The notes under the pieces are model-generated. The model did not search any database. It saw nothing but the letters and a program-made list of their open reading frames with translations, and was not told the DNA's origin. Of a stretch of 64,000 bases of DNA, positions 18,399-22,599 are shown one piece after another. The stretch's first letter is position 1, and each line of letters opens with the position of its first letter. This DNA comes from the human T2T-CHM13v2.0 reference genome, Homo sapiens. The position numbers and the translations under genes were made by a program. The stretch is from the NCBI RefSeq assembly GCF_009914755.1, contig NC_060930.1; one strand, 5' to 3'.

Positions 18399-19171
18399 TA
18401 GTGATGTTTTACAAGCACATTGTCTCTGTGCAGAGGTGGCCCTTGGAGTTCCTATGCCACTATGTTCTCTGATGTCACTCCTCAGCCACCTTTGAATTGT
18501 GCTTATGCATCAGAATTCCTGATCTGCTAAGTACTTCCAGGAAACTCATTCAAATGGTAAACATCATTAAGCACCTACCTTATTCTGGGTACTGTGCTCT
18601 ATGGAGTTGAGCCTCAGATAAAAGAATCAAACTTCCTTGGACTTCATAGAAGTCAAAGGTGGGGGTGGGAAGATAAATAAAGAAATTATAGCACAGCATG
18701 TTATGTATTTTACATGACTTTTTTCTTTGAAAGCTACATTATTAATATTTTATGACAGTACTGAGTTACATATACCAAAGATTACAAATTAAAATTTATG
18801 CTTTCTTTCTCTCTTTTGTTCTTACATATTTCTCTGTTCTTGTAGATATTTTGAAATTGGGTATTATGGAGACAGTGCAACAGTTTCATTTATATGATAA
18901 TGTTTTGTTTTACCTTTATTCATCAAAGAGAGATTTGTCAGCTGCAAATTTCTAGTTTGACATTGGTTTTCTCTCAGATCTTTGATGATTATGTTGCTTC
19001 TGGCTGCTGTGGCTGACAGGGGATAGTCAGTTACATTTTAACCAGTTGCTTCTTAGAGGATCTGTGTTTCTCCTGTGGCAAATTTTAAGATATCTGTTTC
19101 TCTTTAACATCTTCTGTTCCAGTGCAGTATGAGTAAATGTGGATCTCTTTTTATTCACAGTGCTATGATAC

Positions 19172-19747
19172 TGTTAGGTATGAGTTCTAAATTTCTCTTA
19201 AAATAATTAACATGTCAGTATGTTCAATTCTTTGCCCTCTACTTTTAAACTTAACTTCCTCATAAAGCAACCTTTTTTGATCACCTGTTCCACCCTGACT
19301 CATCCTGATTACTTGCTCCAGCCTGACTCATTCTGGTTACCTGCTCCACCCTGACTCATTCCAGTCACCTGCTCCACCCTGACTCATTCTGATTACCTGC
19401 TCCACCCTGACTCATCCTGATTACTTGTCCCAGCCTGACTCATTCCAGTTACCTGCACCACCCTGACTCATTCTGATCACCTGTTTCACTCTCTTTAAAT
19501 TAGCCAATCTGAATTAGTTTAGCCTGTGCGGTCTAACCCTAGCCAATAGGGGAATAACACAGCAGCAGGGGCCACGTGCATCAGGGATAAGAACCCCTTC
19601 CCCTTCCTTGTCCAGGGGTGTGCTCACCATTGCTCCATCTGTGAGGGCACACCCTTGTATAGAAGTAATTGCCTTGCTGAGAAGAAAAAAAGAAAATTTT
19701 ATATTTGAGTGCTATTTCTTTGTGGCATCAAGACTTTATTTACAATA
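19172..19747 (+). mobile_element. Solo LTR10 (LTR10A/F-like, HERV-I group) with internal 28-bp VNTR
   Basis: Starts TGTTAGGTATGAGTTCTAAATTTCTC as in the recalled LTR10A/F; 4-bp TSD ATAC at 19168-71 and 19748-51. Confidence 0.85.
19279..19485 (+). repeat. 28-bp tandem repeat, about 7.4 copies, each with TGACTCA
   Basis: TGACTCA starts at 19296, 19324, 19352, 19380, 19408, 19436 and 19464. Confidence 0.97.
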
Positions 19748-19874
19748 ATACATTTCCTTAATATTTTAAGATAACCTCTTTCTGGAATGCCTCTTTCCAT
19801 TTACTCACTTCTCTTCTTCTAGGAATTTAATTAGAGAAGAATTAAATTAAACCTCATTCAACCACCATATACAC

Positions 19875-20070
19875 TGTGGAATCCAAAATAATGGCCTCAC
19901 ACATATGTCCAAGCCCTAAGACGCAGACCATTTAGATATGTTACTTTACACAGCAAAAGGGACTTTGCTGATATGATTAAGAGCATGGACCTTTAGATGT
20001 GGAGATTATTTTGTATTATTTGAGTGGCCCCAATCTGATTGCATGATTTCTTTAACCTGGAGATGACTGG
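19875..20070. mobile_element. MLT1 LTR fragment
   Basis: ATGTTACTTTACACAGCAAAAGGGACTTTGCTGATATGATTAAG is MLT1-like. Confidence 0.65.
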
Positions 20071-21031
20071 AGAAATATGGGTCAGATGGAGTGCTGAATT
20101 TCATCTAGAATAATTTCTTAATCTAGTAAAATAACATCATCTCTGTTTTTTATTCTTTAATTAAGTGGCAAAATGCATTAAAAGGTTTAAAGTTTAAATA
20201 TCCTTGCATTCTTGGGCTATATACCTTGGTCAAGACAGTCTGTTTATAACACATTGGTTAATACAGTCTACTAATATTTTTCTTAGAATTTTCACATCTA
20301 ATTAATTAAAAGTGATTTTCCTATAATAGGTAAATAGTAGAAGGGGGTAAGTCTCTTATTTTACAAATTATTCAAATAATACATGAAAAGAAATGGAAGA
20401 CTGAGACTACAACTCTTTGCCATCCGTAATGAATGAACAGATCTAGCCACTGAACAGCAATGACAATTTTCATCACCAAAGGGAAATAACCAGTATTAAA
20501 CTCTTCCCCTTGTTGAAAAACATGATATAGTACCACCAAAACTCACGGGGAAAAAAATCTGAATAGATGCAAACCTCTATACCAAACTACAAATTTCTAG
20601 AAAATGCAGGTAATAGAGATGCATATTAAACCATAGTTTGGGGTGCAATCCACAAAATACAAACAACAGGAAACTCTACCAGACAATATTAATTTCAAAG
20701 GGATAACCTATAGAACAAATAAGAACAAAAAACTTATTTTTAAAGGTAAAACTAAACTATCATTTGGGATGATGAAAATATAAAATAGAACAAAGAAGTG
20801 AGGACCACAAAAGTCAGGATGTGATGGATTTTTATTTGAAAAAATAAAAATTTACTATTGAACTGGGTCAATTGATGGGGCTTCTAGGTCAGCTGACAAA
20901 CTTCTCTCTCTTTCTGATGGTTAAAGAGTGTTTACTGTTGATTAAAGGTCACCATTTTAAGATTTTTTTTCTTTTATGTCACCTGTGTTTTATGACAAAA
21001 AGGCGAACGCAGAATAAAATGAGTTATGGGG

Positions 21032-21407: not shown

Positions 21408-21787
21408 TCGCTGGAGACAATGTCCACAGTTTATTTCTTGAGTCCTGGATGAACCTGACAGGACATAGCTGAGGGGAAGCCTGGCCCAGTCTGCAGGCTT
21501 TGGCCATCAGTGTAGAGGGAGGAGGTCCTCATCTCTCCACTGGAGCAGTTACAACCAGAGCCTCCTCTCTGCGTGGGAGTGAGGCTCGGTCCTTCCCCTG
21601 AACACGGTGACAGGGATCTCTCCACAGGTAGAGATGACACCATTCCTCCTGTAACATGGTCCAATCTCACGCTTGTTCTGCTTTACAAGAAAGTTGACCC
21701 ACGCTGGTGTCCCCTGAAGAAATCACAGGCACAGAGGAGGGACAGGTGGATTTCAGGGCTGTGCTTGATCTGGGAAAGGAAGAGTGC

Positions 21788-21807
21788 AGACCGCCAGGTG
21801 GCGCCGC
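21788..21807 (+). promoter_or_regulatory. CTCF motif
   Basis: AGACCGCCAGGTGGCGCCGC contains CCGCCAGGTGGCGC, matching the CTCF core consensus. Confidence 0.65.
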
Positions 21808-22599
21808 TGCACTGCTTCTGCGCCCAGGAGGTGCCTGCTGGGGCTGAGATTGAAGGTGGGGAGAAGGATGTCACAGCTCATCGCACAGGTTCCCGGTAAA
21901 AATCCTCCTGCCCAGCCTAGCGGGCTCTCCCTTAATCAACTGTAGCGAAAACTGTCTCCTTCTCACGTTCCTGGAAGGTGCTTTTTGACACAAGAAAGAG
22001 GATGTGATTGCTAGGGTCATCATGTCATTGTTTATTGTGTTGCCAGTAAAGTGAAATCAAAATACACAATAAATAATAAAATAACCCATGATAAGCCAAT
22101 GTTTATAATGTACTAACACCACTGAGCCAGTGTTTATAATGTACTGACACACTCCAAGTGTGGGCACAGCTGCAGACATGCCTTGTCTCTTGGGTCAGGA
22201 CACAGGGTAGAGTGAAATGGAAAGAAATCCCAGTCACTGCAGAAAAGGGCCCCCATGGAAGAGGCCTGGCAGGGAGGCCAGCTGTCCCAGGGCCGCCATA
22301 TTTAGGGATGACTCCCCCTTTCTGGGCAGCACTGGTTTTTTTAATTATTTTTGCATTCACAGTAGTTCTGAAATTGCAGGATGCTGAGACCCAGCACTGG
22401 TCAGTTACACCGTCTCTTCTTCACCATTAAATACTGTGCCAAACAGCACCTTCATACATTTCCATCCTCTTCCAGGAGAGAATCAAAACAACAATGGACA
22501 CATTGATGCATGCAAAAATACTTTAAATATGTGCTATCAGAAGTAGCTACTAAAACATTAATTCCACTGAAATGAGGGAGGCTGTAAAAAAGAAAAACA

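What the first reader, a model, noticed from the sequence alone, without database searches (positions are those of the whole stretch)
19172..19747. LTR10 solo LTR with seven phased AP-1 sites: candidate MAPK-responsive, copy-variable enhancer for HLA-G
Seen: seven perfect TGACTCA motifs at exact 28-bp spacing. The motif is invariant while the surrounding unit bases vary. Downstream are two CCAAT boxes and a CACGTG E-box (19573-78); the TSD is ATAC. Known: LTR10A/F VNTRs bind AP-1 and act as enhancers in epithelial tumours, and HLA-G is ectopically expressed in tumours. Inference: this element, about 17.5 kb from the HLA-G ATG, could tune HLA-G, HLA-H or HCP5B expression, with repeat number differing between haplotypes.
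Basis: partly seen in the sequence, partly recalled or inferred. Interest (0 to 1): 0.72.

Follow-up and report, generated by a model that had tools for sequence, protein, structure and literature searches.

The report
Old retroviral LTR10F enhancer near HLA-G
This is a genuine, tens-of-millions-of-years-old solitary retroviral end piece (LTR10F type) lying 14 kb beyond HLA-G; it carries seven AP-1 binding motifs, belongs to a family already known to act as AP-1-driven enhancers, and has no demonstrated effect on HLA-G.

Summary
Seven TGACTCA motifs lie 28 bp apart (19296-19470) inside a 576-bp element, 19172-19747, flanked by ATAC/ATAC. The element is a solo LTR of the LTR10 family (HERV-I/HERV-IP10F group). 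Its 28-bp unit is the same type as in the printed LTR10F copy near ATG12, and its non-repeat part is nearer F-type copies (mean 90.5%) than A-type copies (84.4%). Its own-branch divergence is 0.055, which gives about 25-55 My depending on the rate; print says about 30 My (PMC466953). RefSeq already lists a 1.2-kb 'P300/CBP strongly-dependent group 1 enhancer' centred on the motif array. LTR10A/F elements acting as AP-1/MAPK enhancers with variable repeats are in print (PMC466953, PMC10113160). Not shown: any effect on HLA-G, HLA-H or HCP5B, or any difference in copy number between haplotypes. The LTR lies downstream of HLA-G, whereas the known Enhancer L lies upstream. The array is long for the family but impure (80% unit match), so it is an old expansion. 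The intact motifs are only weakly unusual (P about 0.04-0.1). Verdict: real and correctly named, already a known kind; the HLA-G link is an untested hypothesis.

The parts
19168..19171 (.). Left copy of the 4-bp target-site duplication (ATAC)
   Evidence: Identical to 19748-19751. Six of 16 flanked family copies show perfect 4-bp duplications at the same termini and one more matches at 3 of 4 bases.
19172..19747 (+). Solo LTR, LTR10 family, LTR10F-like subfamily (HERV-I / HERV-IP10F group), 576 bp, sense on +
   Evidence: 845 candidate places in the genome; the 40 candidates scored gave 66 match rows, 65 of them elsewhere at 77-91% identity over query 73-646/650 (the full-length ones 77-85%); the 5' end is TGTTAG as in 14 of 16 flanked copies (the other two read TGTTGG and CGTTAG); the last two bases read TA where the family has CA, as also in 2 of 16 others; assigned to the F-type.
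19172..19277 (+). 5' part of U3, before the repeat array
   Evidence: 82-94% identity to 38 of 40 fetched copies; the two that did not match are the rearranged ATG12 copy and a 3'-only fragment.
19278..19483 (+). 28-bp tandem array (VNTR region), 7.4 units, with seven TGACTCA motifs at 19296, 19324, 19352, 19380, 19408, 19436 and 19464
   Evidence: The unit is the same type as in the printed LTR10F copy 87,282 bases from ATG12.
19484..19747 (+). 3' part of the LTR (rest of U3, R and U5 not delimited), with CCAAT at 19504-19508 and 19543-19547 and CACGTG at 19573-19578
   Evidence: At the aligned columns the CCAAT boxes are kept in 29 and 28 of 36 other copies and CACGTG in 14 of 36.
19748..19751 (.). 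Right copy of the target-site duplication (ATAC)
18786..19985 (.). RefSeq functional element 'P300/CBP strongly-dependent group 1 enhancer' (public annotation). Its centre, 19385.5, falls on the centre of the motif run, 19383

Best explanation
The element is a fixed solo LTR left by recombination between the two LTRs of a gammaretrovirus-like endogenous retrovirus of the LTR10 family. The subfamily is LTR10F, whose inner part is called HERV-IP10F in print. It inserted some tens of millions of years ago, 14.3 kb downstream of HLA-G. It keeps the viral U3 enhancer, a 28-bp tandem array that here holds seven consensus AP-1 sites, followed by two CCAAT boxes and a CACGTG box. The most likely mechanism is as follows. 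In cells with high AP-1 activity (MAPK-driven carcinoma cells, trophoblast), FOS/JUN dimers occupy the array, recruit p300/CBP, and the LTR behaves as a conditional enhancer. In normal adult tissues such LTRs are kept silent by H3K9me3. Shown here: identity, bounds, family, age range, motif content, and a public enhancer record centred on the array. Taken from print at family level: AP-1 binding, MAPK dependence, silencing, and repeat-length variation. Inferred and untested: that this copy is active in its own chromatin, and which gene, if any, it acts on.
For: Structure: 576 bp flanked by ATAC on each side, with termini matching 16 flanked family copies. Family: homology over the full length to many genomic copies. 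The 28-bp CTGACTCAT-type unit is shared with the copy 87,282 bases from ATG12, and print calls LTR10.ATG12, '87 kb' from ATG12, LTR10F (PMC466953 section 12). The printed LTR10A locus near GPR137B instead has a 29-bp unit with TGAGTCA in sense. A 205-base stretch of the 3' part is 86.4-93.6% identical to 36 F-type copies (234-306 bits) and 81.7-86.9% identical to 17 A-type copies (188-231 bits). The pairing HERV-IP10F/LTR10F is in PMC6443178 (passages). Age: mean K2P distance to 36 copies is 0.109, own branch 0.055, or 0.046 with CpG columns masked. Only 2 CpG remain. Print gives about 30 My, anthropoid (PMC466953 section 6). Function: the RefSeq 'P300/CBP strongly-dependent group 1 enhancer', 18786-19985, is centred on the array. 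Three of the 7 chr6 LTR10A/F-type copies that my searches surfaced lie under such records, which cover 0.063% of chr6. In print, LTR10A/F elements bind FOSL1/JUND and carry H3K27ac and p300 in HCT116, and motif number correlates with H3K27ac and FOSL1 signal (PMC466953 sections 6, 13). LTR10A/F elements also bind JUN/JUND in trophoblast stem cells (PMC10113160 passages).
Against: The subfamily name rests on one printed LTR10F locus and one printed LTR10A locus plus clustering, with no Dfam or RepeatMasker call available. The F-type comparison set was chosen as the best hits to this LTR, which favours it. The ATG12 copy matched only in its repeat array; its non-repeat parts were not found in the 1.28 kb fetched. 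The source of the RefSeq label is recalled: I take it to be a plasmid-based STARR-seq study in HCT116 (Neumayr et al. 2022), which is not held and which I saw only through a citing paper. An episomal assay says nothing about the native locus. Family-wide the motif is not better kept than neighbouring non-CpG columns (0.906 against 0.887), and 129 of 187 units have a perfect motif. So there is no sign of selection for AP-1 binding. Print reports weaker JUN/JUND signal on LTR10F than on LTR10A in trophoblast stem cells.
Confidence: 0.8

Rival explanations
1. One reading: the LTR is a MAPK/AP-1-responsive enhancer that tunes HLA-G (or HLA-H or HCP5B), for instance in carcinomas or extravillous trophoblast, and repeat number differs between haplotypes and alters expression.
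For: The distance to HLA-G is small: 14.3 kb from the 3' end and 17.5 kb from the ATG. No other RefSeq enhancer record lies in the 64-kb window. With seven motifs this copy sits at the high end: among the 36 closest copies the mean is 3.86 and only 2 have 7 or more. Among the 38 loci with three or more consecutive perfect units, only two have longer runs and one ties. Print links motif number to activity and reports 28-30-bp indels in LTR10A/F (PMC466953 section 13). Validated LTR10 enhancers act over up to 1.5 Mb (PMC466953 section 12). HLA-G-positive colorectal cancer cells are in print, seen here as a reference title only.
Against: No call or paper ties this copy to any gene. PMC466953 does not mention HLA, MHC or chr6 in its main text; its tables of predicted targets are supplements I could not open. 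The text of the genome-wide knockout screen for HLA-G regulators in JEG-3 does not contain JUN, FOS or MAPK. The known HLA-G control elements are upstream. The array is impure, with 80% unit match, and its repeated blocks differ by about 12% by my hand count from the units printed. It is therefore an old expansion and probably less unstable than pure arrays such as the ATG12 copy (93% match, 11.4 units). RefSeq lists a CTCF-state silencer 1.9 kb beyond the LTR, which may separate it from HCP5B and HLA-H (inference).
Confidence: 0.12
2. The LTR is an inert relic at its native locus. It is heterochromatic in essentially all cell types, and the enhancer record reflects only what the naked DNA can do on a plasmid.
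For: Print finds no LTR10 enhancer activity in normal adult tissues, general H3K9me3 marking, and strong dependence on cell line (PMC466953 section 6). CpG content is almost gone, 2 in 576 bp, as expected after long germline methylation. There is no family-wide conservation of the motif beyond neighbouring columns. No transcript starts in the LTR in RefSeq.
Against: All seven motifs are intact after an own-branch divergence of 0.055 per site. About 2.7 changes would be expected in the 49 motif bases, giving P of none of about 0.07 (my arithmetic). That is suggestive, not significant. Many LTR10A/F copies are marked as active in HCT116 and in trophoblast stem cells (PMC466953, PMC10113160).
Confidence: 0.4
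3. The LTR works as a promoter that starts a host or chimeric transcript running downstream on the + strand.
For: The LTR is in sense on + and keeps CCAAT boxes. Print notes that some LTR10A/F copies act as promoters, for example at NOS3 (PMC466953 section 6; PMC10113160 passages).
Against: RefSeq has no + strand transcript starting in or after the LTR. The nearest gene, LOC105375010, is on the - strand and ends 1.1 kb away. There is no TATAAA or AATAAA in the LTR. Print says most LTR10A/F copies are not transcribed.
Confidence: 0.05
4. The element is not retroviral at all, only a local minisatellite that happens to contain AP-1-like heptamers.
For: The flanks are unique, and the assembly's soft-masking covers only 19177-19279 and 19456-19611.
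Against: The non-repeat parts on both sides of the array match dozens of dispersed copies at 82-94%. The ends are sharp and shared, and 4-bp duplications occur at independent sites. Nine of 16 flanked copies show purine-rich or primer-binding-site-like flanks typical of proviral LTRs (my reading).
Confidence: 0.01

Closest known systems
LTR10F copies described as AP-1/MAPK-dependent enhancers in colorectal cancer cells, e.g. LTR10.ATG12 (PMC466953)
   Same: Same 28-bp unit with CTGACTCAT in sense; 85-86% identity over 214 bases of array. Same family features: an AP-1 array in U3 and indel-prone repeats (print).
   Different: The ATG12 copy has 11.4 units at 93% match and matched only in its array within the 1.28 kb fetched. 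The window copy is a complete solo LTR with 7.4 units at 80% match. The ATG12 copy has silencing data in print; this copy has none.
LTR10A copies (the GPR137B locus of PMC466953; the ENG, CSF1R and NOS3 elements of PMC10113160)
   Same: Same LTR10 family, an AP-1 motif array, and JUN/FOSL1 binding in print. An A-type copy near UBD, about 280 kb away, also lies under a RefSeq group 1 enhancer record.
   Different: 29-bp unit with TGAGTCA in sense. The 3' part is only 81.7-86.9% identical to the window LTR, against 86.4-93.6% for F-type copies.
HLA-G Enhancer L (Ferreira et al. 2016, seen only as cited in PMC11962456)
   Same: A distal element within about 20 kb of HLA-G, proposed to control tissue-restricted expression.
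   Different: Enhancer L is 12 kb upstream, works through CEBP and GATA factors by looping, and is shown to be required. The LTR is downstream, AP-1-based and untested. The original paper is not held, so I could not see whether its reporter screen covered this position.

Membership tests
LTR10 (LTR of the HERV-I / HERV-IP10 group, ERV1 class) | Sequence homology over the whole LTR length to dispersed genomic copies | tested here: met
   845 candidate places; the 40 scored gave 65 match rows elsewhere at 77-91% identity, the full-length ones (77-85%) covering 19172 to about 19745-19750; both non-repeat parts match.
LTR10 (LTR of the HERV-I / HERV-IP10 group, ERV1 class) | Shared LTR termini (TG at the 5' end, CA at the 3' end) | tested here: inconclusive
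   the 5' end is TGTTAG as in 14 of 16 flanked copies (the other two read TGTTGG and CGTTAG). At the 3' end the family reads CA, but this copy reads TA at 19746-19747, as do 2 of 16 others. The position matches and one base differs.
LTR10 (LTR of the HERV-I / HERV-IP10 group, ERV1 class) | 4-bp target-site duplication flanking a solo LTR | tested here: met
   ATAC at 19168-19171 and 19748-19751. Perfect 4-bp duplications occur in 6 of 16 flanked copies and a 3-of-4 match in one more.
LTR10A/F (the repeat-bearing subfamilies) | Internal 28-30-bp tandem repeat that contains the AP-1 motif (PMC466953 section 13) | tested here: met
   period 28, 7.4 units, seven perfect motifs.
LTR10F rather than LTR10A | Closer to copies that print names LTR10F than to copies that print names LTR10A | tested here: met
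   The unit type equals that of the ATG12 copy. The GPR137B LTR10A has a 29-bp unit with TGAGTCA; the bit-score ranges do not overlap (F 234-306, A 188-231). Caveat: only one printed reference locus per subfamily.
LTR10F rather than LTR10A | Assignment by the curated Dfam / RepeatMasker models | not testable with these tools
   No repeat library is on hand, and the masked-repeat rows carry no family names.
AP-1/MAPK-dependent LTR10 enhancers (PMC466953) | Enhancer activity of the DNA in colorectal cancer cells | tested here: met
   Public annotation only: a RefSeq 'P300/CBP strongly-dependent group 1 enhancer', 18786-19985, centred on the array. Its source, HCT116 STARR-seq, is recalled and seen only through a citing paper.
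AP-1/MAPK-dependent LTR10 enhancers (PMC466953) | FOSL1/JUND occupancy and H3K27ac at the native locus; loss on MAPK inhibition | not testable with these tools
AP-1/MAPK-dependent LTR10 enhancers (PMC466953) | A nearby gene whose expression depends on the element | not tested
   No data for this copy in any paper searched.

The most novel reading that the evidence does not exclude
This seven-site LTR10F is the element through which oncogenic MAPK/AP-1 signalling (and perhaps AP-1 activity in invasive trophoblast) switches on the immune-checkpoint gene HLA-G from its 3' side. Under this reading its unit number differs between MHC haplotypes and contributes to heritable differences in HLA-G expression.
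Probability: 0.1. Interest if true: 0.7.

Novelty: already known. Interest (0 to 1): 0.3.

Why it matters
HLA-G is an immune-tolerance molecule. It is normally confined to invasive trophoblast and is switched on in some tumours, and what switches it on there is poorly understood. A retroviral enhancer responsive to MAPK/AP-1 signalling, 14 kb from the gene, is a concrete and checkable candidate. As it stands, though, the element is an ordinary, correctly recognised member of a family whose enhancer behaviour and repeat variability are already published. This copy's enhancer potential is already in public annotation. What remains is a target-gene question that existing public chromatin, contact and long-read haplotype data could answer.

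Tried and rejected
Paralogous empty site. I searched the genome with each flank, hoping that other MHC class I duplicons would show the site before insertion and so date it against the duplications. The left flank (18420-19171) matched only itself. The right flank matched old dispersed repeats, and distant MHC paralogues only from window 20048 onward. No empty site was found. Closed regions are not shown, so absence is not proven.

Naming from the non-repeat parts of the printed LTR10F copy near ATG12. Only its array matched; neither the 5' nor the 3' non-repeat part was found in 1.28 kb. I did not fetch further, because I could not tell what lies beyond. The name therefore rests on the unit type plus clustering.

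Selection on the motif. Within the array, P=0.043 for a pre-named window and 0.49 for any run. Family-wide, motif columns score 0.906 against 0.887 for other non-CpG columns. I rejected this as evidence of selection. The two most variable unit columns, 25 and 26, are where many other copies carry CG (units listed), so much of the 'surrounding variation' is CpG decay.

Recent expansion as the cause of seven intact motifs. Rejected: the unit match is only 80% and the repeated three-unit blocks differ at 10 of 84 positions (hand count).

Literature. Neumayr et al. 2022 and Ferreira et al. 2016 are not held. No paper found with HLA-G + LTR10 (9 papers, 4 opened), LTR10F + HLA (4 found, 3 listed, 2 opened), HLA-G + 'Enhancer L' + trophoblast (38 found, 10 listed, 3 opened) or HLA-G + FOSL1 + enhancer + colorectal (12 found, 10 listed, 1 opened) ties this LTR to HLA-G. 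Supplements of PMC466953 (tables S12-S14, S24, S25) may list this copy and its predicted targets; I could not see them.

Not attempted: presence in other primates, other human haplotypes and chromatin tracks, since no tool here offers them.

Full report
1. What is there. Reading 18900-20000 and searching the motif shows TGACTCA on the + strand at 19296, 19324, 19352, 19380, 19408, 19436 and 19464, an exact 28-bp step. In the whole 64-kb window the motif is not enriched: 15 matches against 12.6 expected, and 28 of 100 shuffles reach 15. The signal is therefore one array, not a scatter. Tandem Repeats Finder reports 19278-19483, period 28, 7.4 copies, 80% matches and 4% indels, with higher-order periods of 56 (85%) and 84 (89%). 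CCAAT is at 19504 and 19543, CACGTG is at 19573, and only two CpG remain in the element.

2. Bounds and structure. A genome search with 19100-19820 found 845 candidate places. The 40 candidates scored gave 66 match rows. Apart from the window itself these match at 77-91% identity, the full-length ones at 77-85%. Nearly all begin at query 72-74 (window 19171-19173) and end at 646-651 (19745-19750). I fetched 16 copies with 15-20 bases of flank. Fourteen of the 16 begin TGTTAG; the other two read TGTTGG and CGTTAG. The family ends in a stretch whose last two bases are CA, and this corresponds to window 19747. The window copy reads TA there, as do 2 of the 16. Six of the 16 have perfect 4-bp duplications at these ends and one more has a 3-of-4 match. 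The other nine have purine-rich left flanks or primer-binding-site-like right flanks, which I read as LTRs still attached to proviruses. The window copy has ATAC at 19168-19171 and at 19748-19751 and neither kind of proviral flank. It is a complete solo LTR, 19172-19747, 576 bp, sense on +.

3. Family. Print says that LTR10A and LTR10F, alone among LTR10 subfamilies, carry an internal 28-30-bp variable tandem repeat containing the AP-1 motif (PMC466953, section 13). It also says LTR10 derives from the gammaretrovirus-like HERV-I (section 6). A pattern search for three consecutive CTGACTCAT units gave 83 matches at 38 loci, with 0 in the reversed-pattern control. One of these loci is at C5:116441243-116441475, which is 87,282 bases from ATG12. 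The paper describes LTR10.ATG12 as 'two LTR10F elements ... 87 kb from' ATG12 and AP3S1 (section 12). Its array (11.4 units, 93% match) is 85-86% identical to the window array over 214 bases. The locus the paper calls LTR10A, near GPR137B, appears at C1:235493432 onward, 48.6 kb from GPR137B. It has a 29-bp unit, and the motif reads TGAGTCA in sense. A search with that copy's 3' part returned a separate set of 39 other copies at 88-92%. A 205-base stretch of the window's 3' part matches 17 such A-type pieces at 81.7-86.9% (188-231 bits) and the 36 F-type copies at 86.4-93.6% (234-306 bits). I therefore name it LTR10F-like. The pairing HERV-IP10F/LTR10F is in PMC6443178 (passages). Caveats: there is one printed reference locus per subfamily, the F-type set was chosen by similarity to the window, the ATG12 copy matched only in its array, and no Dfam call was possible. 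Inner genes were not needed for the name and none was examined.

4. Age. The 5' part (19172-19282) and the 3' part (19484-19747) were aligned apart with 36 other copies, and the substitution counts were summed. The mean K2P distance from the window LTR to the others is 0.109 (range 0.084-0.141). With CpG columns masked the own branch is 0.046. That corresponds to 25 My at 2.2e-9 per site per year and 55 My at 1.0e-9; both rates are recalled conventions. The sample is the set of nearest copies, so the figure leans low. [quoted passage not shown] I found no paralogous empty site to date the insertion against MHC duplications.

5. Is the array special? Compared with the 36 nearest copies it is long. 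It has 7 motifs against a mean of 3.86, a median of 4 and a maximum of 8; only 2 copies have 7 or more, and only one other has a run of 7 at exact spacing. Its unit count of 7.4 compares with a median of 4.9, and only 2 copies are equal or higher. Print gives three AP-1 motifs in the family consensus (PMC10113160). Among the 38 loci, only the chr1:73.03 Mb array and the ATG12 copy have longer perfect runs, and one locus on chr18 ties. The array is also impure. Its 80% unit match compares with a median of 87%, and only 4 of 35 are equal or lower. Units 1-3 and 5-7 differ at 10 of 84 positions (hand count). That is about the divergence expected over the element's whole life, so the expansion is old, possibly older than integration.

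Is the motif's invariance meaningful? Nine of 28 unit columns vary. A pre-named 7-column window escapes with P=0.043, and some run of 7 escapes with P=0.49. With 0.055 changes per site, about 2.7 changes are expected in the 49 motif bases, so P of none is about 0.07 (my arithmetic). In 187 units from other copies the motif is perfect in 129. Motif columns are kept at 0.906 against 0.887 for neighbouring non-CpG columns. The most variable columns, 25 and 26 (0.64 and 0.54), are where many copies read CG. The pattern 'motif invariant, surroundings vary' is therefore largely CpG decay plus modest luck, not clear selection.

6. Function. RefSeq lists one enhancer in the whole window, 'P300/CBP strongly-dependent group 1 enhancer', at 18786-19985. 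Its centre, 19385.5, coincides with the centre of the motif run, 19383. On chr6 there are 90 such records covering 0.063% of the chromosome. Three of the 7 chr6 LTR10A/F-type copies that my searches surfaced lie under one. By my reading of the coordinates, each record is centred near the array. The label series (P300/CBP, CDK7, MED14, BRD4 groups) matches, from memory, the HCT116 STARR-seq cofactor-depletion study of Neumayr et al. 2022. That paper is not held. [quoted passage not shown] So the naked DNA of this region has scored as a p300/CBP-dependent enhancer in the same cell line in which LTR10A/F copies bind FOSL1 and JUND, carry H3K27ac and p300, respond to MAPK inhibition and, for six tested copies, control nearby genes (PMC466953 sections 6, 12, 13). 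USF1 binding of LTR10A/F is named in a legend of that paper, which fits the CACGTG box; that link is my inference. In trophoblast stem cells LTR10A/F bind JUN/JUND, less strongly for F (PMC10113160). In normal adult tissues the family is H3K9me3-marked and inactive (PMC466953 section 6).

7. The HLA-G claim. The LTR is 14,336 bases beyond the 3' end of HLA-G, 1,099 bases from the 3' end of the minus-strand lncRNA LOC105375010, about 25.7 kb from HCP5B and about 35.7 kb from HLA-H (and the gene table). I found nothing that connects it to any of them. PMC466953's main text has no HLA, MHC or chr6. In the opened papers found with HLA-G plus LTR10, HLA-G appears only as a trophoblast marker or the LTR10 element lies elsewhere in the MHC. 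The known distal control element, Enhancer L, is 12 kb upstream and works through CEBP and GATA factors (PMC11962456 passages). The text of the JEG-3 knockout screen does not mention JUN, FOS or MAPK. RefSeq's CTCF-state silencer at 21689-21983 lies between the LTR and HCP5B/HLA-H. The claim is reasonable on distance and on family behaviour, but it is untested; I put it at about 0.1.

8. Verdict. Its kind and mode of action are already published, and this copy's enhancer potential is already in public annotation. The new part, control of HLA-G and haplotype-dependent tuning, has no evidence yet and faces some mild counter-indications: an old impure array, a downstream position, and weaker AP-1 signal on LTR10F in trophoblast. 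Novelty: already known. Interest: 0.3. The boldest reading still open is given in the novel case.

Noticed in passing
G000 C15:23495462-23499470 (inside ATP10A); C1:73024998-73026000; C1:235493432 to beyond 235496048: Very long arrays of LTR10-type units in CHM13. The first is about 4 kb on chr15, seen as many overlapping matches. The second is a run of 12 perfect 28-bp units on chr1. The third is a 29-bp-unit array of at least 2.6 kb, 48.6 kb from GPR137B, the LTR10A locus that PMC466953 reports as germline- and tumour-variable.
   Followed up: partly
G000 C6:29437852-29438065 (near UBD) and C6:162673597-162674386: Two further chr6 LTR10A/F-type copies lie under RefSeq 'P300/CBP strongly-dependent group 1 enhancer' records (29437554-29438753 and 162673472-162674685). 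Together with the window copy that makes 3 of the 7 copies my searches surfaced, while such records cover 0.063% of chr6. The copy near UBD may be the LTR10A listed as a crossover site in PMC7848197.
   Followed up: partly
window 21689-21983: RefSeq silencer record with a CTCF-only chromatin state in K562, 1.9 kb beyond the LTR, on the side of MICF, HCP5B and HLA-H. It could act as a boundary; this was not examined.
   Followed up: no
window 20048-20500: The right flank has 78-81% paralogues at C6:31225702-31225974, C6:31367526-31367801 and C6:29609095-29609263, presumably other MHC class I duplicons. The stretch 19872-20063 matches an old dispersed repeat. The left flank, 18420-19171, matched nothing else in the genome.
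   Followed up: partly
L041 (G000 C5:116440400-116441680): The printed LTR10.ATG12 copy matched the window LTR only in its repeat array. Neither non-repeat LTR part was found within 1.28 kb, so that element is rearranged or interrupted.
   Followed up: partly
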